DNA from: Actinomycetota bacterium
GTDB lineage: Bacteria > Actinomycetota > Acidimicrobiia > Spongiisociales > UBA11373
DNA: 64,000 bases
Direction of reading: 5' to 3'
Assembly: GCA_043810615.1 (NCBI GenBank)
Contig: JBDROA010000092.1
Coordinates: 3,235-67,234 of the forward strand
Each line of letters starts with the position of its first letter. Within the stretch, counting starts at the first letter, position 1. This document shows positions 16,338-63,633 of this stretch, in pieces. The notes beneath the pieces were generated by a model that was not told the DNA's origin, searched no databases, and saw nothing but the letters and a program-made list of their open reading frames with translations. Position numbers and translations under genes: made by a program.

Positions 16338-16583
16338 CTACTCCTCGATGAAGATGCACTCGCCGGGGCACTCCTCGACGGACTGGCGGGTGGCGTCCTC
16401 TGAGCCGGCGAGGACCTCGGCTTTGCCTTCGGCCCCCTGTGGGTTGCCCTTGGCGGCGGCGAAGAGCTTGTCGCCTTCGCGCACGTAGGCCAGGCCGTCG
16501 TCCAGCAGGACGAAGACGTCGGGGGCGATTTCCTCGCACAAGCCGTCGCCGGTGCAGAGATCCTGGTCGATCCAGACCTTCAT
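16338..16583 (-). CDS. Ferredoxin (small [Fe-S] ferredoxin)
   Basis: 81 aa: [24 protein letters not shown]...[11 protein letters not shown] with Cys motifs. RBS AGAGGGAAG. It is only the 3' part of a 647-aa antisense ORF in the track. Confidence 0.75.
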
Positions 16584-16616
16584 CGTCTTCCCTCTGTTCG
16601 TTGGGGTCGGGAGGGA

Positions 16617-18428
16617 TTGTACCGAGCGGCGATGCTCCCCCGGCATATCGCCCTGAGAGAGCCGCGGGCCGGCCGTATACTCTCCGCCGGCCGACCGGGA
16701 GGGGCCGTGGCCGCAGGCCAGCGCTCCGGCGACGAGCTGGCGCAGACCATCAGGATGCTCGAGGAGGAGATCGCCATTCTCCGGCGGCGGCTCCAGGATG
16801 CCCCGCGCCGGGTGCGGGCACTCGAGGAGCGCTTGCTCGAGGCCAAAGGCCGGCTCTCCCAGGCGGTCTCCCAGAACGAGAGGCTCTCGGCCGCTCTCGC
16901 GGAGACCCGGGAGCAGCTGGCGCTGCTGCGCACCGAGGTCGACAAGCTCACCGCCCCACCCAACGTCTTCGGCATCATCGACCGCGTCAACACGGACGGC
17001 ACCATCGACGTCCTGACCGGCGGCCGCAAGCTGCGGGTGGGGGTGCAGCCTGCCATCGAGGTGAAGGAACTGGAGCGGGGCCAGGAGGTGCTGCTCAACG
17101 AGGCGATGAACGTGGTCGACGCGCGGGCGTTCGACCCGGCGGGAGAGGTGGCCACCGTCAAGGAGGTCATGGGCGACGGCCGGGTCATCGTGGTGGGGCC
17201 GGCCGGCGAGGAGCACGTGGTCGGACTCGCCGGGCCCATGATGGAGGCGCCCTTGCGAGTGGGCGACGCGGTGCGCCCGGACGGGCGCAGCGGGCTCATC
17301 CACGAGAGGCTGGTGCGCCCCGAGGTCGAGGAGCTGGTCCTGGAGGAGATCCCCGACATCACCTACGAGCAGATCGGGGGTCTGGGGCCGCAGATCGAGA
17401 CCATCCGCGACGCGGTCGAACTGCCCTACCTGCAGAAGCAGCTCTTCGAGGAGTACGGGCTCAGCGCTCCCAAGGGGGTGCTGCTCTACGGGCCGCCCGG
17501 CTGCGGCAAGACGCTGATCGCCAAGGCGGTGGCCAACAGCTTGGCCCGGGCGGTGGCTGCCAAGACCGGCTCGGCGGACGCGCGTTCGCACTTCCTCAAC
17601 GTCAAGGGCCCGGAGCTGCTCAACAAGTACGTGGGGGAGACCGAGCGGCAGATCCGCCTCATTTTCGCCCGTGCCAAAGAGAAGTCGGATGAGGGGGTGC
17701 CGGTCATCGTATTCTTCGATGAGATGGACTCCCTGTTTCGCATCCGGGGGAGCGGGGTGTCGTCGGACGTGGAGCACACTGTGGTCCCGCAGCTGCTCTC
17801 CGAGCTCGACGGCGTCGAGGGCCTGAAGAACGTCATCGTGATCGGGGCCTCGAACCGGGAGGACCTCATCGATCCGGCCATCCTGCGCCCGGGGCGCCTC
17901 GACGTGAAGATCAAGATCGAGCGACCCGACGTGGCGGCGGCACGGGAGATCTTTGGCATCTACCTGAGGAGCACCCTGCCCTTGCCGAAGGACGAGCTCG
18001 TCGCCGCCGGTGACGACCCGGCGGTGCTGGTGGCGGCGATGATCAACCGGGTGATCGAGGCCATGTACTCGTCCGCCGACGAGAACCGCTTCCTGGAGGT
18101 GACGTACGCCAGCGGCGACAAGGAGACCCTCTTCTTCCGGGACTTCGCCTCGGGAGCCATGATCGAGAACGTGGTGCGCCGGGCCAAGAAGGCGGCCATC
18201 AAGCGGGAGATCGCCGGGGGACAGCGCGGGGTGGGCACCGCCGACCTGGTGGAGGCGGTGCGCCAGGAGTTCCGCGAGCACGAGGACCTGCCCAACACCA
18301 CCAACCCCGACGACTGGGCCCGCATCTCAGGCAAGAAGGGAGAGCGCATCGTGTACGTGCGCACCCTGGTTGGGGGCGACACCCCCCATCGCTCCATCGA
18401 GGCCATCAGCACGGGCCAGTACCTGTGA
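16617..18428 (+). CDS. mpa: Proteasome-associated AAA ATPase (ARC/Mpa)
   Basis: Coiled-coil N-terminus. Walker A GPPGCGKT, Walker [11 protein letters not shown]-terminal ...GQYL proteasome-docking motif. Start may be a few codons downstream (ATG 16632); only 33 bp separate it from the divergent ferredoxin gene. Confidence 0.9.
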
Positions 18429-19942
18429 GCCTCGCGGTCCACAAGGTCCTCGGGACGGAGACCGAGTTCGGCATCACGGTACGCGGACGGCCGGGGTACG
18501 ACCCGGCCACGGCGAGCAGCCTGGTGGTGGCGGCCTACGCCGGCCCCCGGCGCATTCGCTGGTCCTACGACGGGGAGACGCCGGGCCGCGACGCTCGGGG
18601 GTTCGGGAACGGCTCCGCCGACTTCGACAGCGGCATGCTCAACGCGGTGCTGCCCAATGGGGCCCGGCTGTACGTCGATCACGCTCACCCCGAGTTCTCC
18701 ACCCCGGAGTGCTTCGACCCCCTGGAGGCCGCGCTCTACGACAAGGCGGGAGAGTTGGTCCTGGCCCGGGCGGCGGCCGCCGCCCAAGGCGCTCTGGGCC
18801 CGGGAGAGCGCCTGCTCATCCACAAGAACAACAGCGACGGCAAGGGCAACTCCTACGGGGCCCACGAGAACTACCTCATGGCCCGTGGGGTGCCGTTCGG
18901 GGACGTGGTGGCACATCTGACCGCCTTCCTGGTGACCCGCCAGGTGTTCACCGGGGCGGGAAAGGTTGGGAGCGAAAACGGCCGTCCGGCCGTGCCTTTC
19001 CAGCTCAGCCAGCGCGCCGACTTCTTCGAGGAGGAGGTGGGGCTGGAGACCACACTCAAGCGGCCCATTGTCAACACCCGCGATGAGCCCCACGCCGACC
19101 CGGGGATCTACCGGCGGCTGCACGTGATCGCCGGTGACGCCAACCTGTCGGAGAAACAGATCCTCCTGAAGCTGGGGAGCACCGCCCTGGTGTTGGCGGC
19201 GCTCGAGGCCGGGGCGCTGGGGCGGCCGCTCCTCCTGAAGGACCCGGTGGGGGCCATGTGGCGGATCAGCCACGATCCGGGGCTGCGGCAGACCGTGCGG
19301 CTTGGCGGGGGGAAGAGCATCACCCCCCTAGAAGTGCAGCGTGAGTACCTCGCGCGGGTGCGCGACTACGCGGCCGCGGCCGATACCGGCCCGGTGCAAC
19401 TGCAGGTGCTGGGCCTCTGGGAGGAGGTTCTGGAGGCCCTGGAAAGCGACCCCCTGTCCACCTCGGGCTACCTGGACTGGGCCGCCAAGCTGGCGCTGCT
19501 CGAGGGTTACCGCGAGCGCGACGGGTTGCCCTGGTCGCATCCCAAGCTGCGCCTGCTCGACCTGCAGTACCACGACGTCGACCCGCAGCGAAGCCTGCAC
19601 CGCCGCCTGGTCCAGGCCGGGCGCATGGAGAGACTGTTCACCGACGACGACGTCGAGCGCGCTACCACGGAGCCGCCGGAGCGGACCCGGGCCTACTTCC
19701 GGGGGCGCTGTCTGGCCCGGTTCGGGGAGGCGGTGGTCGCGGCCAATTGGGACTCCCTGATCCTCGACGTCGGGGAGGATGCGCTGAGACGGGTGCCTAT
19801 GATGGACCCACTGCGCGGCGGCCGGGAGCGGGTGGCCGATCTCATCGATCGGTCCGCCTCGCCTGCCGATCTGGTCCGAGCCCTCGGAGGAGCCAATGGC
19901 CGAACAGGAACGCAAGCAGCGCCGCCGGAGCGGGCCCTCTGA
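18425..19942 (+). CDS. dop: Pup deamidase/depupylase
   Basis: 505 aa, carboxylate-amine ligase fold paralogous to PafA (GTETEFG...). First PafA-like gene after mpa, directly upstream of pup. GTGA overlap with mpa. Confidence 0.85.
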
Positions 19943-20090
19943 GGAAGGCACGCAGGGCGTCGCCACCCCGCGCGGGGTCGGGGGAGAACTGGCGGGGCAA
20001 ATCGACGACCTCCTCGATGAGATCGATTCGGTGCTCGAGGAGAACGCCGAGGAGTTCGTCAGGAACTACGTGCAGAAGGGGGGCCAGTGA
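19896..20090 (+). CDS. pup: Prokaryotic ubiquitin-like protein Pup
   Basis: 64 aa, disordered and acidic, ends ...YVQKGGQ (GGQ C-terminus requiring Dop deamidation). Starts inside the 3' end of dop. Confidence 0.9.
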   Translation: MAEQERKQRRRSGPSEEGTQGVATPRGVGGELAGQIDDLLDEIDSVLEENAEEFVRNYVQKGGQ

Positions 20091-20881
20091 CCGAGGCGCG
20101 GGCCGGGGGCCTGCCCTGGGACGCGGTCGTCCCGGCGGCGAGCTTCACCGCCCTGTTGCGCTCCCGCGGTTTGGAGCCGCGCTGGACCCTTCCCGCCGAA
20201 GCCGCCGCCCTGGAGGCGCCTGAAGGCACCACGGTGCTTGCCTTCCGTTACGCCGACGGGGTGCTCATGGCCGGGGACCGGCGGGCCACCGCCGGCAACG
20301 TGATCGCGCACCGCAACCTCCAGAAGGTCTTCCCGGCCGACGGCCTGTCGGCCGTGGCCATCTCCGGCACCGCCGGTATCGCCATCGAGCTCATCCGCCT
20401 CTTCCAGACCGAACTGGAGCACTACGAGAAGCTCGAAGGCAGCCGCCTGAGCCTCGAGGGCAAGGCCAACCACCTGGCCGCAATGGTCCGGGCCCAGCTT
20501 CCCATGGCCTTCCAGGGCCTGATGGTGGTGCCCGTGTTCTGCGGCTTCGACGAGGGCGCCGGGCGGGGCCGGCTGTACAGCTACGACGTCGTCGGGGGCC
20601 GCTACGAGGAGACCGACTTCACCGCCACCGGATCCGGTGGGCCGTACGCCAAGGCCCACCTGCGCGGCGCCTTCCGGGAAGGGCTCGGAGAGGACGACGC
20701 CCTGCGGGTGGCGGTCGAGGCGCTCGTGGCCGCCGCCGAAGAGGACTCGGCCACCGGGGGCCCCGACCTGCAGCGGGGCATCTACCCCAACGTGGTGGTG
20801 ATCACGGCGGAGGGATACCGGGAGGTGGCCGAGGACCGGGTGGCCGATGCCGCCCGTCGGGCGATGGGAGAGGTGCGATGA
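20087..20881 (+). CDS. prcB: 20S proteasome beta subunit
   Basis: Propeptide followed by GTTVLAFRYADGVLMAGDRR (active-site Thr). GTGA overlap with pup. Confidence 0.9.
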   Translation: MTEARAGGLPWDAVVPAASFTALLRSRGLEPRWTLPAEAAALEAPEGTTVLAFRYADGVLMAGDRRATAGNVIAHRNLQKVFPADGLSAVAISGTAGIAIELIRLFQTELEHYEKLEGSRLSLEGKANHLAAMVRAQLPMAFQGLMVVPVFCGFDEGAGRGRLYSYDVVGGRYEETDFTATGSGGPYAKAHLRGAFREGLGEDDALRVAVEALVAAAEEDSATGGPDLQRGIYPNVVVITAEGYREVAEDRVADAARRAMGEVR

Positions 20882-21552
20882 CCGTCCCGTTCTACGTCCC
20901 GCCCGAGCAGCTCATGAAGGACCGGGCGGAGTACGCCCGCAAAGGCATCGCCCGTGGCAAGTCGATCGCGGCGGTGGAGTACGCCGACGGCATTCTGCTG
21001 GTGGCGGAGAACCCCAGCGGCACTTTGCACAAGATCAGCGAGATCTACGACCGCATCGCCTTCGCCGGGGTGGGCAAGTACAGCGAGTTTGAGACGCTGC
21101 GGGTGGCCGGCATTCGCCACGCCGACCTCAAGGGGTTCTCCTACGCCCGCAGCGACGTCACCGCGAAGTCGCTGGCCAACGCCTATTGCCACGCCCTGGG
21201 CCAGATCTTCACGCAGGAAGTGAAGCCCTACGAGGTGGGAATAATGGTGGCCGAGGTGGGTGACTGCAGCGATGCCAATCTGCTCTTCAAGTTGACCTAC
21301 GACGGCACCCTGAGCGCCGAGGACGACGTGGCGGCCATCGGCGGCCAGGAGGAGCAGCTCACCGCCCACCTGCGGCAGAGCTTCCGGCCCGACGCCACGC
21401 TCACCGAGGCGGTGCAGTGGGCGATCGCCGCCTTCCAGACGGCGAGCTCCCGCACCTTCCAGCCGAACGAGTGGGAGGCGGCGGTGGTCGATCGGCGGCT
21501 GGGGCGGCGCTCCTTCCGGCGGCTGGCCGCCGAGGAGATGGCCGGCCTCTAG
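20878..21552 (+). CDS. prcA: 20S proteasome alpha subunit
   Basis: [29 protein letters not shown]... 224 aa. ATGA overlap with prcB. Confidence 0.9.
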
Positions 21553-21923
21553 GCCAGCCGGCTCAGCAGGCGCCAAACCAGCACGGCGAGCATCCCCAGG
21601 GCGACGGCCGCCCACCAGGTTCGCATCCCCGCCCCGGAACCTGCCGCACCCGCGGGCTCGGCTCCTCCCCGAGGGGCGGTGTCGACTTCGCCGGGGACCG
21701 TGGCCTCCTCCAGGAGGCTCCGGGCATCATCGAGCTGGGCCGCGGGCACCCAGACCTCTGTGGCGGCCATCTCGCCGATGGTGAGCCGGTAGGGCCCGAG
21801 CGACTCGCCCCGCAGACGGGACTCGATGCCGGCCGAACGCAGCAGGGCGGCGCAGAGGTCGGCCGCCGCCGGGTCGGGCAGGGTGGCAAGGCGCACGAAG
21901 GGAGCGGGGGCCCGCGAGGTCAT
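21549..21923 (-). CDS. DUF2007-like small protein with C-terminal TM helix
   Basis: 124 aa from ATG 21923 ([37 protein letters not shown]...). C-terminal [20 protein letters not shown] helix. Antisense between prcA and pafA. Confidence 0.5.
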
Positions 21924-21989
21924 CCCCGGGCATGGTATCGACCGGCCGGGCGTAGCCGGGAGCAACCCCGGCGGGGTACGCTGCCCGCC

Positions 21990-23345
21990 GTGGAGCGCCG
22001 CATCGTCGGGATGGAGAACGAGTACGGAGTGACCTGCACCCTGCACGGGCAGCGTCGGCTCTCGCCCGACGAGGTGGCCCGCTACTTGTTCCGCCGGGTG
22101 GTGTCGTGGGGCCGCTCGTCGAACGTCTTCCTGGAGAACGGGGCGCGCCTGTACCTGGATGTGGGGAGCCACCCGGAGTACGCCACCCCCGAGTGCGACA
22201 GCCTCTACGAGTTGGTGGCCCACGACAAGGCCGGCGAGCGAGTGCTCGAGGGCCTGCTGCACTCCGCCGAAGGGCGCCTCGAAGAAGAAGGCATCCGGGG
22301 ACAGGTGCACCTCTTCAAGAACAACACCGATTCGGCCGGCAACTCCTACGGGTGCCACGAGAACTACCTGGTGGCCCGCCAAGGCGACTTCCAGCAGATG
22401 CTCGACACGCTGATCCCGTTCTTCGTCAGCCGCCAGGTGTTCGCCGGCTCGGGCAAGGTGCTGCACACCTCCCGCGGCGCGGTGTTCTGCCTGGCGCAGC
22501 GGGCCGAGCACATCTGGGAGGGGGTTTCCTCGGCCACCACCCGCAGCCGGCCCCTCATCAACACGCGCGACGAGCCACACGCCGACGCCGAGCGCTACCG
22601 GCGGCTGCACGTGATCGCCGGCGACTCCAACATGAGCGAGTACGCCACCTACGCCAAGGTGGGGAGCACCCTCGCCCTGCTCCAGATGCTCGAAGAGGGG
22701 GTCGTCTTCCGCGACCTGAGCCTGGAGAACCCCATCCGGGCGCTGCGAGAGATTAGCCGCGACCTCAGTTGCCGGCGGCGGGTCCGCCTGGCCAACGGGC
22801 GGGAGCTATCGGCGCTGGACATCCAATGGGAGTACCTGGAACGGGTGCTGCGCTACTCCCGCGCCCATCCCTTCCCGCCCCAGGTCGAATCGGCGGTGGG
22901 GATGTGGGAGCACCTGCTCACCGGGCTGGAGAAGGACCCACTCTCGCTGCGCCGGGAGTGCGACTGGGTGGCGAAGTACCACCTGGTCGAGGACTACCGC
23001 GCCCGGCGCCGACTGGAACTGGGCGACGCCCGGGTGGCCCTCCTCGACCTGGCCTACCACGACGTGACCCGGGAGCGGGGCCTCTATTACCTGCTGGAGC
23101 GGCGCGGGATGGTGGATCGGGTGGTCACCGACGAGGACGTCGGGCGCGCTCTGCTCAACCCGCCCCAGACCACTCGGGCCCGGCTGCGCGGCGAGTTCAT
23201 CAAGGCGGCCAAGGCCGGCCAGCGCGACTTCACGGTGGACTGGGTGCACCTCAAGCTGAACGACCAGGCGCAGCGCACCGTGCTGTGCAAGGACACCTTC
23301 CGGGCCTTCGACGAGCGGGTAGACCGCCTCATCGCCGGGCTCTGA
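21990..23345 (+). CDS. pafA: Pup--protein ligase
   Basis: GTG 21990 gives [47 protein letters not shown]..., co-linear with the mycobacterial PafA N-terminus; 451 aa. The 190-aa upstream ORF extension overlapping prcA was rejected. Confidence 0.85.
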
Positions 23346-23393
23346 ATCGGGCGTGCCTTCTCGCAGGGGGCGGCAGGGGATACAGTCGGACAG

Positions 23394-24317
23394 ATGCAGC
23401 GGGTCATAGAGCGCCTCCTCAATCTGCTCGCCTTCCTCCTCAACGCCGGGCGGCCGGTGACCGCCGACGAGATCCGTCACACCGTGGCGGGGTACGGCCA
23501 GGAGGGGGACGAGGCCTTCCGGCGCACCTTCGAGCGCGACAAGGACCTGCTGCGCCAGTTGGGCATACCGCTGCGGCTGGCCCCCACCGACGCCTGGGAG
23601 GTGGAACAGGGCTATGTGGTGCGGGGCGAGGAGTACGCCTTGCCCGACCCGGGGCTCAGCGACGAGGAGCGGACCGCCCTTTGGCTGGCGGCCCAGGTGG
23701 TGCGGGTCGGCGGACAGGCTCCGGACCCGGCCGTCCTCTTCAAGCTGGGCGGGGCTCCCCCCGCCTTCACCGGAGCCACCCTGGGGGCCGACATCGGCGC
23801 GGTCTCGGACGACCTGGCGGAGTTGTTCGCCGCGGTGACCGAGGCCCGGCTCGTCTCGTTCACCTACAAGGGGAAGGAGCGCCGGGTGCGCCCCTACGGC
23901 CTGGTGCATCGGCGCGGGCACTGGTACCTGGTCGGGCCGCAGGCGGGCGAGAAGGAGGGTCGGGCCTTTCGCATCGACCGCCTCAGCGGCCTCGCGGTGG
24001 GCTCACGGCCGGGGGCCTTTTCCCGCCCGAAGGGCTTTCGCGCCGCCGACGCCGTGCCCGCCGTTCCTTGGGAGGCGGGGGAGGCCGGCATCGAAGTCGC
24101 CGTTCGCTTCGACCCCGCGGTCGCCTGGTGGGCCGGGCGCCAACTGACGGGGGACGCCGTGGTGGAGGAGGAGGCCGGCGGAGGCCTTCTCGCCCGCTTC
24201 TCGGTGGCGGCGCTGGATCCCTTCATCGGGTGGATGGTGGGGTTCGAGGACGCGGCCGAGGTGCTTTCCCCTCCCGAAGTGCGGCGGGCCCTCCTGGCCC
24301 ACGTGGGTGAATCGTGA
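23394..24317 (+). CDS. pafB: Proteasome accessory factor B (HTH + WYL domain transcriptional regulator)
   Basis: N-terminal wHTH (MQRVIERLLNLLAFLLNAGRPVTADEIRHTV), central WYL region; immediately downstream of pafA. Confidence 0.8.
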   Translation: MQRVIERLLNLLAFLLNAGRPVTADEIRHTVAGYGQEGDEAFRRTFERDKDLLRQLGIPLRLAPTDAWEVEQGYVVRGEEYALPDPGLSDEERTALWLAAQVVRVGGQAPDPAVLFKLGGAPPAFTGATLGADIGAVSDDLAELFAAVTEARLVSFTYKGKERRVRPYGLVHRRGHWYLVGPQAGEKEGRAFRIDRLSGLAVGSRPGAFSRPKGFRAADAVPAVPWEAGEAGIEVAVRFDPAVAWWAGRQLTGDAVVEEEAGGGLLARFSVAALDPFIGWMVGFEDAAEVLSPPEVRRALLAHVGES

Positions 24318-25246
24318 GCCGCGAGCGCACCGCCGCCCGTCTCTCGCGCTTGCTGGGCATGCTCCCCTGGGTCATCGGCCATCCCGGGGCCGAGGTTGGC
24401 GAGGTGTGCTCTCGCTTCGGGTACAGCCGGGCCGAACTGGCCCGCGACCTGGCCGCGGTCTTCGTGAGCGGTCTTCCCGGCTACGGGCCCGGCGACCTCA
24501 TGGTGGCCTACCTCGACGGCGACGAAGTGGTGGTCGATCTCGCCGACTACTTCGCCCGCCCGGTACGCCTCACCGCCGGCGAGGGCCTGGCCCTGCTGGC
24601 CGCCGGCATGGCGCTGGCTTCTTCGGGGGCCGCCCCGGAGGCGCTGAGCACCGCCGTCTCCAAACTCGCCGCGGTGCTCGTCCCCGACGACGGCACCCTG
24701 GCGGTGGGGCTGCCCGCTCCCCCGGAGGTGGTCGCCACCCTCGGCCGGGCTGCTGCCGGCGGCGAGGTGGTCCGGCTCACCTACACCTCTCTGGGGCGGG
24801 GGAAGACCACGATGCGGCAGGTGGAACCGTGGCGGGTGTTCTCCACCCTCGGCAACTGGTACCTGAGCGGGCACTGCCGCCTGGCCGAAGGAGAGCGGGT
24901 CTTCCGCGTCGATCGCATCCGCGAGGCGTCGCTCACCGGGGAGCGGTTCACCCCCCCGGCCGAGTCGCCGCCGGCCGAAGTGCGCTACGCCCCGGCCGCA
25001 GACGACGTGTCGGCGCTGATCCGCCTCGGGCCGGGCGCGGAGTGGGTGGCGGACTACTACCCGGTCGAGGTGGTACGGCGCGAGGGGGACCGCGCGGTGG
25101 TGCGGTTCAGCGCCTCGGACCCGGCGGTCACGGCGCGGCTCCTCGTCCGCCTGGGGGGGATGGCCGACTTGCTGGAGGGTCCCGAAGTGGCTGCGGCGGC
25201 AGCCGACCTGCGGGCCCGAATCCGACGGCGCTACCGCACTGCCTAG
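24314..25246 (+). CDS. pafC: Proteasome accessory factor C (HTH + WYL domain)
   Basis: GTGA overlap with pafB. MSRERTAARLSRLLGMLPWV... Paralogous architecture to PafB. Confidence 0.8.
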   Translation: MSRERTAARLSRLLGMLPWVIGHPGAEVGEVCSRFGYSRAELARDLAAVFVSGLPGYGPGDLMVAYLDGDEVVVDLADYFARPVRLTAGEGLALLAAGMALASSGAAPEALSTAVSKLAAVLVPDDGTLAVGLPAPPEVVATLGRAAAGGEVVRLTYTSLGRGKTTMRQVEPWRVFSTLGNWYLSGHCRLAEGERVFRVDRIREASLTGERFTPPAESPPAEVRYAPAADDVSALIRLGPGAEWVADYYPVEVVRREGDRAVVRFSASDPAVTARLLVRLGGMADLLEGPEVAAAAADLRARIRRRYRTA

Positions 25247-31329: not shown

Positions 31330-31367
31330 AACCGCTTCCTGTCCCTCTGTGGGGGGATAATGCTGTC

Positions 31368-31508
31368 ATGGATACTACGCCGCTCGACTCCATGCTACGG
31401 GCCCTCGAGGACGCCGACCCGGCCGAAGCCCCCGATCTGGCCGACGCCGTCGCCCGCGTCCTCGGGGATTGGCTCGATCCGCTGCGCCATTCCGAGGGGG
31501 CCCGCTGA
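31368..31508 (+). CDS. Small ORF (46 aa) upstream of tlyA, not in the ORF track (below size cut-off)
   Basis: ATG 31368 to TGA 31506-08: MDTTPLDSMLRALEDADPAEAPDLADAVARVLGDWLDPLRHSEGAR. Positionally matches the small conserved ORF preceding tlyA in mycobacteria. Confidence 0.3.
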   Translation: MDTTPLDSMLRALEDADPAEAPDLADAVARVLGDWLDPLRHSEGAR

Positions 31509-32287
31509 CCCGCCGCCGGCTCGACCTCGAACTCGTGCGGCGCGGCCTGGCCTCCACCCGCACCACGGCGCAGCGGCTGATCGCCGCCGGCCGGGTCGTG
31601 GTCCACGGTGTGCCCGAGCCGCGCCCGGCCACTCTGGTCGACCAGCAGGCCGCCGTGTCGGTGACCGACGACGGGCCCCGGTGGGCGAGCCGGGGGGGCG
31701 TGAAGCTGGCCGCGGCTCTCGAGTCTCTCGGAGTGGACTGCGCGGGGCGGCGCTGCCTCGACGTGGGGGCCTCCACCGGGGGGTTCACCGATGTGCTCCT
31801 CGTCCGCGGGGCCGAGACGGTGACCGCGGTTGACGTGGGGTACGGGCAACTGGCGTGGCGGCTGCGCTCCGACCCGCGGGTGGCCGTTTTCGACCGCACC
31901 AACTTCCGCCTGGCCGACCCGGCGGCCCTGGGCGCCCCGTTCGACCTGGTGACCGCCGACGTGTCGTTCATCTCCCTCCGGCTCCTGGCCCCAAACCTGG
32001 CGGCTTGCGGCCGGCCCGGCACGGAGTACGTTGTGCTGGTGAAACCGCAGTTCGAGGTGGGCCGCCGCCAGGTGCGCCGCGGCGGGCTGGTCACCGATTC
32101 GCAAATGCATCGCTTCGCCCTCCAGGGGGTGGCCGACGGCTTCGCCGCCGCCGGCCTGGGCACCAAAGGCGCCCACCCCTCGCCCATCACCGGGGCCACG
32201 GGCAATCGGGAGTTCTTCCTCCATGCCGTGTGGGGCCGCGCGCTGCAGCCGGCCACACCGTCATTCGATGAGGTGGTGCTGTCGTGA
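31469..32287 (+). CDS. tlyA: TlyA-family rRNA 2'-O-methyltransferase (hemolysin A-like)
   Basis: S4-like N-terminus (LDLELVRRGLASTRTTAQRLIAAGRVVVHG) and FtsJ-type MTase (LDVGASTGGFTD). The start could also be the in-frame CTG at 31505. Confidence 0.8.
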   Translation: MARSAAPFRGGPLTRRRLDLELVRRGLASTRTTAQRLIAAGRVVVHGVPEPRPATLVDQQAAVSVTDDGPRWASRGGVKLAAALESLGVDCAGRRCLDVGASTGGFTDVLLVRGAETVTAVDVGYGQLAWRLRSDPRVAVFDRTNFRLADPAALGAPFDLVTADVSFISLRLLAPNLAACGRPGTEYVVLVKPQFEVGRRQVRRGGLVTDSQMHRFALQGVADGFAAAGLGTKGAHPSPITGATGNREFFLHAVWGRALQPATPSFDEVVLS

Positions 32288-38958: not shown

Positions 38959-39434
38959 GCGCCGGCTTGCGGCACCTGGCGCGGCGCTTCTTCGGGGTGC
39001 TCGGCGCGGCGCGGCTGAGCCCGGCGGAGCAGGTCGAAGTCTCCCGACTGCTGCGGCCGCCGGAGCGGGATCTGTTCTGGGGCCAGCGCCCTGCCGACCA
39101 GCGGCATGGCCTGGAGTGCGCCCGGACGGCGCTGGGGCGTTGCCCCGGTCGGCCCGACCTGGCCCGCGCCGCCCTGCTCCACGATGTCGGCAAGCGGCTC
39201 GCCGGGCTGGGTGTCGCGGGGCGCACGATGGCCGCCATCCTGGGAGCCCTCCGGCTCCCGGTCAAGGGCCGTGTCGCGGCCTACCTGGGTCACGGCCCGG
39301 CCGGCGCCGCCGACCTGGAGGCAGCCGGAGCCGAAGCGGTGGTGGTGGGCTTCGCCCGGCACCATCACGGTTCGTGCCCCGACGACATCCCGGCCGCCGA
39401 CTGGGAAGAGCTGTGTCGCGCCGACTACGCCTGA
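38955..39434 (+). CDS. HD-domain phosphohydrolase-like protein
   Basis: GTGA overlap with the protease gene. H..LLHDVGK HD motif; 159 aa. Confidence 0.6.
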   Translation: MSAGLRHLARRFFGVLGAARLSPAEQVEVSRLLRPPERDLFWGQRPADQRHGLECARTALGRCPGRPDLARAALLHDVGKRLAGLGVAGRTMAAILGALRLPVKGRVAAYLGHGPAGAADLEAAGAEAVVVGFARHHHGSCPDDIPAADWEELCRADYA

Positions 39435-39444
39435 AAGACGGGTC

Positions 39445-40239
39445 ATGGCACGGCGGCGGCAATACGATGACTGCCGCGCCATGAGCTACCAGGTCACCAC
39501 CCCGGTCTTCGAGGGCCCCCTCGACCTCCTCCTGCGCCTCATCAACGAGAGGCAGGTGGAGATCACCGCGGTCAGCCTTGTGGGGCTCGTGGACGAGTAC
39601 GTGGCGCACCTGGGCCAGATGCGCCGCCTCGACCTCGAGGTGACCTCGGAGTTCTTGCTGATCGCCGCCACGCTGATCCAACTGAAGGCTCGCCGCCTCC
39701 TTCCCGGCGCCGCCCCGGTGGACCCCGACGAGGAACTGGCCCTGGCCGAGGAGCGCGACCGGCTCCTGAGCCGCCTGCTCGCCTGCCTCACTTTCAAGGA
39801 TGTGGCGGCCGTGCTGGCCCACCGCATGGAGGCGACGGCCCGCCTGATGGGCCGCTACGGCGGCATCGACCCGAGCATCATCCCCCTCCCTTCCCTGGTG
39901 CGGCTGCCCTGCGATGCCGCCGGCTTCGCCCGGCTGGCCGGGCGCCTCCTGACCCGGCCTCAGGAGCCCGACCTCGACCACTTGGACCTCGACCTGCCCT
40001 CGGTGGCCGTCGCCATCGAGGAGGTGCGGGCCCGGCTGGCCGCCGAGATGCAGACGGACTTCGAACTTCTCACCCGCGGCCTGCGGCGCCCGGTCGAGGT
40101 CGTGGCCTACTTCCTCGCGGTCCTGGAACTGGTGCGCTGGGGTCTGGTGGAAGCCACCCAGGAGCACGCCGGCATGCCCATCCTCCTGCGGCACCGCCGC
40201 GAGGCCGAGGCGGGACTGGTGAGCGAGTGGCAGAAGTAA
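39445..40239 (+). CDS. scpA: Segregation and condensation protein A
   Basis: FEGPLDLLLRLINERQVEITAVSLV is the ScpA N-terminal signature. Alternative start ATG 39481. Confidence 0.8.
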   Translation: MARRRQYDDCRAMSYQVTTPVFEGPLDLLLRLINERQVEITAVSLVGLVDEYVAHLGQMRRLDLEVTSEFLLIAATLIQLKARRLLPGAAPVDPDEELALAEERDRLLSRLLACLTFKDVAAVLAHRMEATARLMGRYGGIDPSIIPLPSLVRLPCDAAGFARLAGRLLTRPQEPDLDHLDLDLPSVAVAIEEVRARLAAEMQTDFELLTRGLRRPVEVVAYFLAVLELVRWGLVEATQEHAGMPILLRHRREAEAGLVSEWQK

Positions 40240-40817
40240 CGGACCTGCTGGCGGCGCTTGAAGCCATCCTCTTCGTGGCCGAGGAGCCGATCCCTGTGGG
40301 GGAGATCGCCGAGGTGCTGGAGGTTCCTGCCACCGTCGTCCAGGAGGCTCTGGCCGTGCTGACCGAGCGGCTGGCGGAGCGCGACTCGGGACTCGTGGTG
40401 CGGGAGGTGGGGAGCGGCTGGCGGCTCTACACCCGGGCCGATGTGCACCCGTACCTGGAGAGGTTCGCCGCGGGCGCCACCGCGGCACGGCTCAGTCGAG
40501 CCGCCCTCGAGACGCTGGCCGTGGTGGCTTACCGCCAGCCCGTCTCGCGCGGCCAGGTGTCCGAGATCCGCGGGGTCGATTCGGATCACGCTCTACGGAC
40601 GCTGGAGCGCCGCGCGCTCATCGATGTGGTGGGCCGGGCCGCGGGCTCGGGCGCCGCCGTCCTGTACGGCACCACCGACCTGTTCCTGGAGAAACTGGGA
40701 CTGCGCTCCCGCGACGAACTGCCCCCCCTGGCCGACCACGTTCCCCCGGCCGGGGTGGTGGCCCGCCTGGAGGAGCCCTTCCGCCCGGAGGAGCCATCGA
40801 GCGACTCCAGCGACTGA
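40227..40817 (+). CDS. scpB: Segregation and condensation protein B
   Basis: LEAILFVAEEPIPVGEIAEVL ... two wHTH repeats. GTG start overlapping the scpA end. Confidence 0.85.
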   Translation: MAEVTDLLAALEAILFVAEEPIPVGEIAEVLEVPATVVQEALAVLTERLAERDSGLVVREVGSGWRLYTRADVHPYLERFAAGATAARLSRAALETLAVVAYRQPVSRGQVSEIRGVDSDHALRTLERRALIDVVGRAAGSGAAVLYGTTDLFLEKLGLRSRDELPPLADHVPPAGVVARLEEPFRPEEPSSDSSD

Positions 40818-41500
40818 TCGCCCACTCGGGGCTGGCCTCCCGCCGCGCCGCCGAGGATCTGGTTCGTGCCGGGCGGGTCCTGGTGGACGGTGTGCCCGCC
40901 CACCTGGGTCAGAAGGTGGACCCCGAGACCGCCCGGGTCGAGGTGGACGGGGTGCCGCTGCCCATCCGGCCGGGCCTGGTCTACTACCTCGTGTTCAAAC
41001 CGGCCGGGGTGGTGAGCACCGCCTCCGACCCCCAGGGCCGCCCCACGGTGGTCGGGTTGGTGCCGCCCGACACCCGGGTGTACCCGGTGGGGCGCCTCGA
41101 CGCTGACAGTGAAGGCCTGATCATCCTCACCAACGACGGGGACCTCGCCTCCCATGTGTCCCATCCCCGGCACTCGGTCCCGAAGACCTATCTGGCACGC
41201 GTCGCCGGCTCGCCCGGGCGCAAAGCCCTGCGGGCCTTGACGACCGGCGTGGAACTGGACGACGGTCCGGCCCGGGCGCTGCGAGTGCGCCTGGTGGGTG
41301 AGCAAGGCGGCGAGGGCCTGGTGGAGGTGGTCATGGGGGAGGGGCGCAAGCGGGAGGTGCGGCGCCTGCTGGCGGCGGTGGGGCATCCGGTGCAGGCCCT
41401 GGTGCGCACCGCCATCGGCCCGGTCCGCGACTCGGCCCTGCGGCCCGGCACCTGGCGCCACCTCACCCTCGACGAAGTGCGGGCGCTCTACATGGCATGA
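40814..41500 (+). CDS. rluB: Pseudouridine synthase (RsuA/RluB family) with non-canonical CTG start
   Basis: An S4 domain (LIAHSGLASRRAAEDLVRAGRVLVDGV) is encoded in frame upstream of the first canonical start (GTG 40883). That frame has no ATG/GTG/TTG between the stop at 40259 and 40883. CTG 40814-16 overlaps the scpB TGA as CTGA. Catalytic motif GRLDADSEGLIILTNDG. Confidence 0.75.
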   Translation: MIAHSGLASRRAAEDLVRAGRVLVDGVPAHLGQKVDPETARVEVDGVPLPIRPGLVYYLVFKPAGVVSTASDPQGRPTVVGLVPPDTRVYPVGRLDADSEGLIILTNDGDLASHVSHPRHSVPKTYLARVAGSPGRKALRALTTGVELDDGPARALRVRLVGEQGGEGLVEVVMGEGRKREVRRLLAAVGHPVQALVRTAIGPVRDSALRPGTWRHLTLDEVRALYMA

Positions 41501-41507
41501 TGCGCCG

Positions 41508-42770
41508 GTGAGGACCTTCCGCCTGCCGCCGGGGCCCTTCTGTGCCGAGCCCACCGTGCCGGGGGACAAGTCCTTGTCGCACCGTGCCCTCCTGCTGGCG
41601 GGGATGGCCTCCGGGGTGAGCCGGGTGGCCAACCTCGGCCCCGGAGGAGACGTCGCCGCCACCGCCGCGGTGCTGCGCTCTCTGGGGGTGGAGGTCGGGA
41701 GCGATTCAGTACGGTCGCCGGGCGTGGAAGCCTGGACGGCTCCCGACGGCCCCCTCGACACCGGGAACTCCGCCACCACCATGCGCCTCCTCGCCGGCGC
41801 TCTGGCGGCGCGGCCGTTCGCGACCACCCTCGTCGGCGACGCTTCCCTGATGACACGCCCCATGGCCCGCCTGGTGGGCCCCCTGGGCGCTCTGGGCGCC
41901 GACATCCGGGTGGGACCAGAAGGATGCCCTCCGGTGACGGTGTGCCCGGGGGTGCTGCACGGCACCACAGTGGACATACCCGTGGCTTCGGCTCAGGTGC
42001 GCAGCGCCGTCGCCCTGGCCGCCCTCCAGGCCGAGGGTCCGACACTGATCACCTCGCCGCCCGGCTTTCGCGACCACACGGAGCGCTGGCTCGAGGCAAT
42101 GGGCCTGGGCCGGCGGTTGACCGAGTCCCGGTTCGAAGTCCTGCCGGGGCCGGTGCCCCCCGCGGCCTACGACCTCCCCGGTGACTTGTCGGCGGCCGCC
42201 TTCCTGCTGGCGGCGGCGGCGCTGCGGCCCGGTGCCGAGATCACCCTGAGGCGAGTGACTCTGAACCCCGGTCGGACGGGGTTCCTGGACGTCCTGGAAG
42301 CCATGGGTGCGCTCGTGTCGCGCTCCGCCACCGGCCTCATCCACGGCGACCCGGTGGGTGACGTCACCCTCACCGGCGCCGAGTTGCGGGGCGTGCGAGT
42401 GGGGAGCGCCGTCGCGGTGCGGGGTCTGGACGAACTGCCTTTGGTGGCCGTCCTGGGCGCAGCCGCCACGGGGGAGACCGTGGTGGAGGGAGCCGTCGAA
42501 CTGCGCGCCAAGGAGAGCGACCGGGTGGCGGCGGCGGTACGCCTGGTGCGCTCCCTGGGAGGCGCTGCCGAGGAGCGGCCCGACGGCTTTGCGGTGCAGG
42601 GCGGGAGCGGGATGCGGGCCGGGTTGGTGGACGCCGGGGGCGATCATCGCATCGCCATGGCGGCGGCGGTGGCGGCGGTGACCGGCGCCGAGGTGACGGT
42701 GGCCGGCTTCGAGGCCGTGGCGGTGTCGTGGCCCGGCTTCGCCGAGGCATTGGAGGGACTGTGGTCGTGA
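41508..42770 (+). CDS. aroA: 3-phosphoshikimate 1-carboxyvinyltransferase (EPSP synthase)
   Basis: GTG start. PGDKSLSHRALLLA, ...LRVKESDRV-like KESDRVAAAV motif; 420 aa. Confidence 0.9.
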   Translation: MRTFRLPPGPFCAEPTVPGDKSLSHRALLLAGMASGVSRVANLGPGGDVAATAAVLRSLGVEVGSDSVRSPGVEAWTAPDGPLDTGNSATTMRLLAGALAARPFATTLVGDASLMTRPMARLVGPLGALGADIRVGPEGCPPVTVCPGVLHGTTVDIPVASAQVRSAVALAALQAEGPTLITSPPGFRDHTERWLEAMGLGRRLTESRFEVLPGPVPPAAYDLPGDLSAAAFLLAAAALRPGAEITLRRVTLNPGRTGFLDVLEAMGALVSRSATGLIHGDPVGDVTLTGAELRGVRVGSAVAVRGLDELPLVAVLGAAATGETVVEGAVELRAKESDRVAAAVRLVRSLGGAAEERPDGFAVQGGSGMRAGLVDAGGDHRIAMAAAVAAVTGAEVTVAGFEAVAVSWPGFAEALEGLWS

Positions 42771-62576: not shown

Positions 62577-63287
62577 ATGACCACGGCAGTAGCCCAAGAC
62601 CGCCTCGCTTCTCTCGAGGCCAAACTCGACGCGGTCTCCCACCAGGTCGACTACGTCGTCGTCGCGCTGCGCCAGCAGGAAACCCGGCGCGGCATGTGGG
62701 ACGAACTGCGCCACGACCTGGCCCCCGTCACCGCAGACGTCATGGAGCGAGTCAGCCGCGAACTGGACGAGGTGCGCGGCTTCATCGAGCCGGATGACCT
62801 ACTTCGCGTCACCAAGCGCCTGTTGCGCGACCTGCCCTGCCTGGAGGCCCTCCTCGACCAGGTGGAAAGCGTGTCGGCCCTCGGCGCCGACCTGGCACCG
62901 CTGAGCCGGGAGATGCTCCTGGCGGCGATGGCCGCTCTCGCCGAACTGGAGCACCGGGGCTATTTCGCTTTCGCCCGCGGGGCCAAGGAAGTCATGGACC
63001 GCTTAGTCGTCTCCCTCGGCCCTGAGGACCTGCGGGCTCTCGCCGCGAGCGCCCCCGACGCCGTGCAGGCTCTCAAGGAACTCGCTCATCCCGAGGTCCT
63101 CGGCCTCCTGCCCGCCCTGGCGCAAGGCCTGCGGGCGACTCCGGCAGAGACCCCCGGCTTGCTCCGGCTGCTGTGGCGGCTGCACCGCCCGGCGGCCCGG
63201 CGCGGCCTGGCCCGAGCTCTCGAGGCCCTGGAGGCCCTGGGCGGCCCCCCGGCGCCGACCGTCGAGCCCGACCCCACGATCCGCTGA
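62577..63287 (+). CDS. DUF1641-like helical protein
   Basis: ATG 62577 with GAAGGAACGGTGAGG RBS. All-helical, 236 aa. Assignment to the SQR-associated DUF1641 family is from memory and context. Confidence 0.45.
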   Translation: MTTAVAQDRLASLEAKLDAVSHQVDYVVVALRQQETRRGMWDELRHDLAPVTADVMERVSRELDEVRGFIEPDDLLRVTKRLLRDLPCLEALLDQVESVSALGADLAPLSREMLLAAMAALAELEHRGYFAFARGAKEVMDRLVVSLGPEDLRALAASAPDAVQALKELAHPEVLGLLPALAQGLRATPAETPGLLRLLWRLHRPAARRGLARALEALEALGGPPAPTVEPDPTIR

Positions 63288-63315
63288 ACCGAACCTTGAA
63301 GGGAGCAGAACCCCT

Positions 63316-63633
63316 ATGCCCATCGCCACCATCGCCGGCCGTGCCGTCCACCTCGACGAGGAAGGCTTCATGACCGACCCCGCCGAGTGGACCGAGGAGA
63401 TCGCCGCCTTCCTGGCGAGCCAGATCGGCATCGACCCCCTCACCGACGGGCACTGGAGCGTGATCCGCTTCCTGCGCGCCGACTTCGCCGCGCAGGGAGA
63501 GACCGCCACCCTCCGCCGGGTGTCCACCGTGGCCGGGGTGGCCACCAAGGACCTCTACGCCCTCTTCCCTGGCAAACCCGCCCGCAAGATGGCCTACGTG
63601 GCCGGGCTCCCCAAGCCCACGGGCTGCGTGTAA
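63316..63633 (+). CDS. TusE/DsrC/DsvC-family sulfur relay protein
   Basis: 105 aa ending ...YVAGLPKPTGCV (the conserved C-terminal arm Cys of DsrC/TusE); RBS GAAGGGAG. Confidence 0.8.
   Translation: MPIATIAGRAVHLDEEGFMTDPAEWTEEIAAFLASQIGIDPLTDGHWSVIRFLRADFAAQGETATLRRVSTVAGVATKDLYALFPGKPARKMAYVAGLPKPTGCV

What the first reader, a model, noticed from the sequence alone, without database searches (positions are those of the whole stretch)
40796..40883. Pseudouridine synthase S4 domain reachable only through a CUG start overlapping the scpB stop (CTGA)
A codon-by-codon scan of the rluB reading frame from its upstream stop (40259) to 40883 finds no ATG, GTG or TTG. The frame nevertheless encodes a textbook S4 domain (LIAHSGLASRRAAEDLVRAGRVLVDGV) from 40814, which aligns with the N-terminus of RsuA/RluB proteins. 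The only initiation solution is CTG 40814-16. This codon forms CTGA with the scpB stop codon, analogous to the ATGA/GTGA coupling used throughout this window. Starting at GTG 40883 would delete the S4 RNA-binding domain.
Basis: seen in the sequence. Interest (0 to 1): 0.55.

Follow-up and report, generated by a model that had tools for sequence, protein, structure and literature searches.

The report
Conserved AUC start codon of rluB

Summary
The rluB frame has no ATG, GTG or TTG between the stop at 40259 and GTG 40883, yet it encodes an S4 domain upstream of that GTG.

The proposed CTG 40814 start is not supported. Homology to S4 and to E. coli RluB begins five codons earlier, at Glu 40799. 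That codon is directly preceded by ATC 40796-40798, with GGAGG at 40787-40791.

- In 33 distinct junction sequences from Acidimicrobiia genomes and metagenomes (54-96% protein identity), C-ATC-GA is invariant.
- Codon periodicity and pN/pS switch from the scpB frame to the rluB frame exactly at the ATC. In the ATC-to-CTG stretch, pN/pS is 0.33 in the rluB frame and 2.09 in the scpB frame.
- Some relatives have an rluB-frame stop 12-15 codons upstream of the ATC.
- No conserved slippery site or RNA structure was found.
- Nested lineages have gained an ATG 1-2 codons upstream. One has ATA at the site.
- Two GenBank records already annotate the ATC as the start. 97 of the 120 best database homologues are called truncated.
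- Among about 45 Pfam-bearing ORFs in the window, only rluB shows this.

Verdict: a clade-conserved AUC initiation codon lying 22 nt inside scpB. It is a new member of a known kind and of moderate interest. Initiation at the AUC is inferred, not shown.

The parts
40227..40817 (+). scpB coding sequence (GTG start, TGA stop at 40815-40817). Its last 22 nt overlap rluB.
   Evidence: ORF list. Pfam SMC_ScpB E = 1.4e-51. Upstream of the ATC the scpB frame has pN/pS 0.39.
40787..40791 (+). GGAGG, a Shine-Dalgarno-like motif 4 nt upstream of ATC 40796. It also encodes Glu-Glu in the scpB tail.
   Evidence: Sequence. GGAGG at -9..-5 in 25 of 33 relatives and GGAG at -9..-6 in 4 more.
40796..40798 (+). 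ATC, the proposed AUC initiation codon of rluB.
   Evidence: Invariant in 33 of 33 distinct junction sequences. Entropy is 0 at all three positions and at -1, +4 and +5. It is the only near-cognate codon conserved between the upstream stops and ERLQ. It is annotated as the start in two GenBank records. It occupies the position of the ATG in Bacilli RluB, MERLQK.
40796..41500 (+). rluB coding sequence as re-delimited here: 234 codons plus a stop at 41498-41500.
   Evidence: Pfam S4 plus PseudoU_synth_2. E. coli RluB chains 4lab and 9cl9 align to residues 2-228, E about 1e-40.
40799..40927 (+). S4 RNA-binding domain, residues 2-44.
   Evidence: Pfam PF01479 at residues 2-44, profile 1-45 of 48. 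pN/pS 0.34 in the rluB frame over +4..+87.
40814..40816 (+). It overlaps the scpB stop as CTGA.
   Evidence: TTG replaces it in L082 and L090. The codons upstream of it are under rluB-frame constraint.
40883..40885 (+). GTG, the first canonical start-type codon in the frame. It is the internal Val-30 codon, and starting here removes S4.
   Evidence: The position of the first canonical codon varies among relatives (+18, +36, +63, +66, +81, or none up to +130).

Best explanation
rluB (23S rRNA pseudouridine synthase, S4 domain plus catalytic domain) is translated from the non-canonical codon AUC at 40796-40798. This gives an N-terminus Met-Glu-Arg-Leu-Gln-Arg-Leu-Ile-Ala, the same as in orthologues that start with ATG.

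The AUC lies 22 nt inside the 3' end of scpB, 4 nt downstream of GGAGG and 19 nt upstream of the scpB UGA stop.

Shown here:
- The coding boundary of RluB is at this codon.
- The codon is invariant across a deep Acidimicrobiia clade.
- No canonical alternative exists that keeps the S4 domain.

Inferred:
- Initiator tRNA reads AUC by third-position mismatch, as at the AUU/AUC start of infC. Efficiency would be low and sensitive to IF3.
- Ribosomes translating and terminating scpB just downstream probably help, by unfolding the site or by re-initiating.
- The result would be a small, scpB-coupled output of a low-abundance enzyme.
For: - No ATG, GTG or TTG lies between 40259 and 40883.
- S4 begins at residue 2 of the ATC-started protein. 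E. coli RluB chain residue 3 aligns to residue 2.
- 33 distinct sequences keep C-ATC-GA.
- Entropy periodicity flips frame at the ATC.
- pN/pS in the rluB frame is 0.34 over +4..+87 and 0.33 over +4..+18, against 2.09 for the scpB frame over +2..+19, the same ATC-to-CTG stretch. Upstream, the scpB frame gives 0.39 and the rluB frame 1.89.
- rluB-frame stops at -36 and -45 in L007, L101, L012, L013 and L100 cap any upstream start. L012 has no canonical codon from -45 to +130.
- GGAGG or GGAG lies at -9 in 29 of 33 sequences.
- In the NJ tree, ATC is the state of a deep clade. Nested lineages gained ATG at -3 (L016, L010) or -6 (L005), right beside the ATC. Sister clades use GTG or ATG.
- One relative has ATA at the site, forming ATAG with the scpB stop.
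- GenBank records GCA_036396055.1 and GCA_036277595.1 annotate the gene from the ATC as Met.
- AUC initiates with Met at 1-2% of AUG in E. coli (bioRxiv 10.1101/063800).
- infC uses AUU or AUC under IF3 control (PMC5499595).
Against: - No experimental N-terminus or ribosome-profiling data exist. Initiation at AUC is inferred from comparative evidence only.
- The GGAGG doubles as scpB codons (Pro-Glu-Glu). Its conservation cannot be credited to initiation alone, and a 4-nt spacer is short.
- ATC is also the preferred Ile codon in a 72% GC genome. Third-position invariance alone is weak evidence.
- One clade member, L099, has a 6-nt deletion that removes both GGAG and ATC and leaves GTC. It does have an in-frame ATT four codons upstream with GGAG at the same spacing.
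- A 22-nt overlap is longer than the -4/-1 overlaps for which termination-reinitiation is best documented (PMC12548453).
Confidence: 0.8

Rival explanations
1. Translation starts at CUG 40814-40816, coupled to the scpB stop through the CTGA overlap, giving a protein that begins (M)IAHSGLASRR.
For: - CTG is a near-cognate start codon, at 1-2% of AUG in E. coli.
- It overlaps the scpB UGA, and (C/T)TGATC is conserved in the clade.
- In L082 and L090 the codon is TTG, and gene callers start there.
Against: - The five codons upstream (ERLQR) are part of the S4 domain in Pfam and in E. coli RluB. They evolve under rluB-frame purifying selection, pN/pS 0.33 against 2.09 for scpB.
- There is no SD-like motif within 5-10 nt of the CTG.
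- Conservation of CTGATC is accounted for by Leu-Ile codons plus the scpB stop.
- Lineages that regained a canonical start placed it next to the ATC, not at the CTG.
Confidence: 0.05
2. RluB is made as a ScpB-RluB fusion by programmed -1 ribosomal frameshifting in the overlap. rluB is in the -1 frame relative to scpB, so no start codon would be needed.
For: - The frame relationship is right for a -1 shift.
- The rluB frame is open for at least 12 codons upstream of the ATC in all relatives.
Against: - An in-frame X XXY YYZ heptamer is present in only 4 of 33 sequences. It sits at -54, upstream of the rluB-frame stops seen in other clade members.
- There is no conserved downstream structure. 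The consensus fold is -2.57 kcal/mol, and the window sequence has z = -0.51 against shuffles.
- The rluB frame upstream of the ATC shows no coding constraint (pN/pS 1.89).
- Close relatives with ATGA overlaps (L016, L010) clearly make separate proteins.
Confidence: 0.04
3. Artefact or decay. Either a base-call error turned ATG into ATC, or the gene is N-terminally truncated or decaying and is really expressed from GTG 40883 without S4.
For: - Most gene callers choose a downstream canonical codon. 97 of the 120 best homologues are called truncated.
- ATC differs from ATG by one base.
Against: - The same ATC occurs in 33 distinct sequences from independent genome and metagenome assemblies.
- The S4 segment is under purifying selection (pN/pS 0.34).
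- The first canonical codon falls at different places in different relatives and is absent up to +130 in some. No single truncated product is conserved.
Confidence: 0.03

Closest known systems
infC (initiation factor IF3) AUU/AUC start codon, and E. coli pcnB AUU
   Same: A near-cognate AUH codon is conserved across species as the sole start of a housekeeping gene linked to translation. It is preceded by an SD-like motif and would be read by initiator tRNA as Met. Low intrinsic efficiency and IF3 discrimination are expected (PMC5499595; 10.1101/063800).
   Different: - The gene is different: an rRNA pseudouridine synthase.
- The codon lies 22 nt inside the upstream gene.
- No autoregulatory logic is known or shown here.
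- Conservation is limited to one Acidimicrobiia clade rather than spanning bacteria.
E. coli RluB and B. subtilis-type RluB (RsuA/RluB/RluE/RluF family; PDB 4lab, 9cl9)
   Same: Same architecture, an N-terminal S4 domain plus a PseudoU_synth_2 catalytic domain with the GRLD motif. Chain residues 3-237 of 9cl9_A align to residues 2-228 here. The gene follows scpA-scpB, as in the related loci.
   Different: Bacilli orthologues start with ATG at exactly the position of the ATC, for example Sporosarcina L068, MERLQK. Here and in the clade, that codon is ATC.
Translationally coupled overlapping gene pairs (ATGA / TGATG; termination-reinitiation)
   Same: Both are co-directional overlapping genes in one operon. 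Relatives L016 and L010 have the classic ATGA overlap at this same junction, and L163 has the analogous ATAG. The scpB stop lies within ribosome-footprint distance (19 nt) of the rluB start.
   Different: The overlap is 22 nt, not 4 or 1, and the restart codon is non-canonical. Coupling was not tested. The efficiency of backward re-initiation over 19 nt is uncertain (PMC12548453).

Membership tests
RluB-type pseudouridine synthase (RsuA/RluB/RluE/RluF family) | N-terminal S4 RNA-binding domain | tested here: met
   PF01479 at residues 2-44, E = 8.5e-10, above the curated cutoff. Present only if translation starts at or before 40799.
RluB-type pseudouridine synthase (RsuA/RluB/RluE/RluF family) | PseudoU_synth_2 catalytic domain with the conserved GRLD aspartate motif | tested here: met
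   PF00849 at residues 63-194, E = 2.7e-18. 'VGRLDADSEGL' aligns to 'VGRLDVNTCGL' of E. coli RluB.
RluB-type pseudouridine synthase (RsuA/RluB/RluE/RluF family) | Modifies U2605 of 23S rRNA | not testable with these tools
   Only database names ('23S rRNA pseudouridine2605 synthase') and best PDB hits to RluB.
Genes with a conserved non-canonical (AUH) initiation codon, infC-like | No canonical start codon is compatible with the conserved N-terminal domain | tested here: met
   The same holds in relatives. It is unique among about 45 Pfam-bearing ORFs of the window.
Genes with a conserved non-canonical (AUH) initiation codon, infC-like | A near-cognate codon is conserved at the coding boundary across orthologues | tested here: met
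   ATC in 33 of 33 sequences, ATA in one further relative. The frame-specific constraint switches at this codon.
Genes with a conserved non-canonical (AUH) initiation codon, infC-like | Shine-Dalgarno sequence at functional spacing | tested here: inconclusive
   GGAGG at -9..-5 in 25 of 33 and GGAG in 4 more. The motif is also scpB coding sequence, and the spacer is only 4-5 nt.
Genes with a conserved non-canonical (AUH) initiation codon, infC-like | Experimentally mapped N-terminus or initiation site, and IF3-dependent expression | not testable with these tools
   No proteomic or ribosome-profiling data are available. No paper was found.
Termination-reinitiation coupled gene pair | Stop and start codons overlap or lie within a few nt (-4, -1) | tested here: not met
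   The overlap is 22 nt and the start lies 19 nt upstream of the stop. Relatives L016, L010 and L163 do have 4-nt overlaps.
Programmed -1 ribosomal frameshift site | Conserved slippery heptamer X XXY YYZ plus a downstream stimulatory structure | tested here: not met
   A heptamer occurs in only 4 of 33 sequences, at -54. There is no conserved structure.

The most novel reading that the evidence does not exclude
The AUC start may be regulatory rather than just tolerated. IF3 and mature 30S subunits discriminate against AUH codons, and assembly-defective ribosomes relax that scrutiny (PMC6868393 was listed but not read in detail). RluB synthesis would then rise when IF3 is limiting or ribosome maturation is compromised. 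That would give a feedback loop from ribosome quality to an rRNA-modification enzyme, layered on obligatory coupling to scpB translation. The long persistence of ATC, and of the invariant C at -1, would reflect selection for this low, conditional output.
Probability: 0.12. Interest if true: 0.7.

Novelty: new member of a known kind. Interest (0 to 1): 0.4.

Why it matters
Conserved non-AUG/GUG/UUG start codons are very rare in bacteria. infC and pcnB are the textbook cases. A second gene family with an AUH start kept across a deep clade is useful in three ways.

- **A natural test case.** It bears on how near-cognate initiation is sustained: by the Shine-Dalgarno motif, by coupling to an upstream gene, or by IF3 sensitivity.
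- **A systematic annotation error.** 97 of the 120 closest database entries are called without the first part of the S4 RNA-binding domain. This would mislead domain-based function calls and structure predictions.
- **Evolution of overlapping signals.** The junction moves between ATGA, ATAG and ATC...TGA forms. A single base in a 4-nt start/stop overlap can both remove the start and extend the upstream gene.

Tried and rejected
- **RNA structure.** RNAalifold on 33 junction sequences gave -2.57 kcal/mol with no real covariation. The single-sequence fold had z = -0.51. No structure-based mechanism is supported.
- **Known RNA families.** An Rfam scan of 39000-42000 at E <= 1 returned only a spurious miRNA hit.
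- **Slippery heptamers.** None is conserved in the scpB frame.
- **Other near-cognate codons upstream of the ATC.** None is conserved. A second ATC at -3 occurs in 10 of 33 sequences.
- **Genome-wide relaxed start usage.** I scanned stop-to-stop translations of 59 coding-like ORFs against Pfam. About 45 had hits. Only rluB has a domain beginning upstream of its first canonical start. The test sees only N-terminal domains, so it is coarse.
- **Initiator tRNA.** The window holds only tRNA-Pro(GGG).
- **Literature.** No paper links an ATC start to a pseudouridine synthase or describes this case.
- **GC3-based start prediction.** Too noisy to use and dropped.

Full report
**1. The observation**

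The window is 71.8% G+C. The operon here reads:
- scpA, ending at TAA 40237-40239
- scpB, GTG 40227 to TGA 40815-40817
- rluB
- aroA, probably starting at GTG 41508
- cmk

In the rluB frame the upstream stop is TGA 40259, and the first ATG, GTG or TTG is GTG 40883.

A protein started at GTG 40883 has only the PseudoU_synth_2 domain. Read from 40796, it also has an S4 domain at residues 2-44, matching profile positions 1-45 of 48.

- The frame also contains ATC at 40796, along with several other near-cognate codons.
- The homology does not begin at 40814. It begins at Glu 40799. The translation is I-ERLQRLIAHSGLASRRAAEDLV, and deposited E. coli RluB chains align from their residue 3 (EKLQKVLARAG) to residue 2 here.

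**2. Evidence from relatives**

A protein search gave thousands of homologues. Among the 120 best, 97 are called with a truncated N-terminus (213 aa in 41 cases, also 205, 222, 227 and 228 aa). These start at whatever internal ATG, GTG or TTG each sequence happens to have. More distant homologues begin MERLQK, MNERLQK and similar. That pattern pointed to a clade-wide absence of a canonical start rather than a local error.

I fetched 160 loci from species-representative genomes and from metagenomes and placed the query on each by tblastn.
- 35 loci have ATC at the codon directly before E/D-R-L/I/V-Q/H-K/R. With the window, these collapse to 33 distinct junction sequences at 54-96% protein identity.
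- The hexamer C-ATC-GA is invariant in all 33.
- (C/T)TGATC, which contains the scpB stop, always follows 15 nt later.
- GGAGG lies at -9..-5 in 25 sequences and GGAG at -9..-6 in 4 more.

**3. Where the coding boundary lies**

Per-column entropy shows three-base periodicity in the scpB frame upstream of about -6 and in the rluB frame from +4 onwards. The six positions from -1 to +5 have zero entropy.

Nei-Gojobori estimates over all pairs:

| Region | Frame | pN/pS |
|---|---|---|
| +4..+87 | rluB | 0.34 |
| Same stretch (+5..+88, +3..+86) | the other two frames | 1.55, 2.33 |
| ATC-to-CTG stretch, +4..+18 | rluB | 0.33 |
| ATC-to-CTG stretch, +2..+19 | scpB | 2.09 |
| -44..-3 | scpB | 0.39 |
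| -45..-1 | rluB | 1.89 |

The ERLQR codons are therefore translated as RluB. The rluB frame upstream of the ATC is not protein-coding.

Independent limits agree:
- L007 and L101 have an rluB-frame stop at -36. L012, L013 and L100 have one at -45.
- L012 has no canonical codon from -45 to +130.
- Between those stops and ERLQ, the ATC is the only near-cognate codon present in all sequences.

**4. Evolutionary pattern**

In an NJ tree of the proteins, the ATC-bearing sequences form one deep clade, and sister clades use GTG or ATG a few codons upstream of ERLQ. Three lineages nest inside the ATC clade:
- L016 and L010 have ATG one codon upstream, forming the classic ATGA overlap with a shortened scpB.
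- L005 has ATG two codons upstream.

Ten of 33 sequences have tandem ATC-ATC. L016 looks like that arrangement with the first ATC turned into ATG.

In Bacilli such as Sporosarcina L068, the ATG sits exactly where the ATC is, giving MERLQK.

One further relative, GCA_036478235.1, has ATA at the site, and there the scpB stop overlaps as ATAG.

The one exception is L099. A 6-nt deletion removes GGAG and leaves GTC. It does carry an in-frame ATT four codons upstream, with GGAG at the same -9..-6 spacing. This may be a replacement start, but it is a single contig.

**5. Existing annotation**

Two GenBank assemblies, GCA_036396055.1 and GCA_036277595.1, annotate this gene from the ATC and translate it as Met (P0059 and P0066). 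JGI, Logan and ENA calls truncate the gene.

I found no paper describing the case.

**6. Rivals**

- **CTG 40814.** Rejected because the upstream codons are under RluB constraint and belong to S4, there is no SD nearby, and the codon varies to TTG as a Leu codon would.
- **-1 frameshift fusion.** The frame relationship is right. However, no slippery heptamer is conserved (4 of 33, at -54), there is no conserved structure, and there is no rluB-frame constraint upstream.
- **Sequencing error or pseudogene.** Rejected by recurrence in independent assemblies and by purifying selection on S4.

**7. Mechanism**

Shown: the boundary, the conservation, and the absence of alternatives.

Inferred from established knowledge:
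- AUC is read by initiator tRNA and yields N-terminal Met at about 1-2% of AUG efficiency in E. coli (10.1101/063800).
- AUH codons are the class discriminated against by IF3, as in infC autoregulation (PMC5499595).
- The site lies inside scpB and 19 nt before its stop. Ribosomes translating scpB will therefore unwind it and terminate within reach. [quoted passage not shown]

The data here cannot tell how much each route contributes. No inhibitory structure was detected, which gives no support to a pure unfolding model.

**8. Specificity within the genome**

I scanned stop-to-stop translations of 59 coding-like ORFs in the window against Pfam. About 45 had hits. Only rluB has a domain that begins upstream of its first canonical start: S4 at codons 180-222 against the first canonical codon at 208. 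The non-canonical start therefore looks gene-specific, not a sign of generally relaxed start-codon use.

**9. Verdict**

The start codon should be reassigned from CTG 40814 to ATC 40796. It is a new, clade-conserved example of a known but rare phenomenon, a bacterial AUH start codon, and it has already been picked up silently in some GenBank annotations. Interest is moderate, mainly for translation-initiation biology and for correcting widespread truncated annotations.

Noticed in passing
window 40795: The base just before the ATC (C at -1) is invariant in 33 of 33 sequences. The scpB codon it belongs to (nCA) changes between Pro, Ser and Thr, and positions -2 to -4 are highly variable. It may be initiation context. 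It remains unexplained.
   Followed up: partly
L099:1411-1560: This is the only clade member without the ATC. A 6-nt deletion removes GGAG and leaves GTC. A synonymous CCA-TTT in scpB creates an in-frame ATT four codons upstream, with GGAG at the same -9..-6 spacing. It may be a compensating start, or an assembly artefact in a single 4.5-kb contig.
   Followed up: partly
L163:1495-1510 (GCA_036478235.1): ATA replaces ATC at the start position, and the scpB stop is TAG overlapping it (ATAG). This mimics the ATGA overlap with a non-canonical start. GenBank annotates the gene from this ATA.
   Followed up: partly
protein database hits P0001-P0120: 97 of the 120 closest RluB homologues are called N-terminally truncated (213 aa in 41 cases). 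They lose part or all of the S4 domain, a systematic gene-caller error for this clade.
   Followed up: yes
L016:2480-2520 and L010:1960-2000: These lineages nest inside the ATC clade and carry ATG one codon upstream, forming ATGA with a scpB that is 6-7 codons shorter. The junction toggles between ATGA and ATC...TGA forms. Ten of 33 sequences carry tandem ATC-ATC.
   Followed up: partly
window 40227-40239: scpA and scpB overlap by 13 nt (scpB GTG 40227, scpA TAA 40237-40239). This is another overlap longer than 4 nt in the same operon.
   Followed up: no
window 16404-25243: A complete Pup-proteasome cluster: proteasomal ATPase (ARC/Mpa-like), two proteasome subunits, Pup ligase, and PafB/PafC-like WYL regulators.
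   Followed up: no
window 63007-63630: An ORF with a full-length DsrC-like domain (PF04358, E = 4.4e-30), next to ORFs without Pfam hits.
   Followed up: no
window 31361-32284: A second S4-domain protein, TlyA-like (S4 plus FtsJ methyltransferase). Its S4 domain begins 15 codons after a canonical start, so it serves as an internal contrast to rluB.
   Followed up: yes
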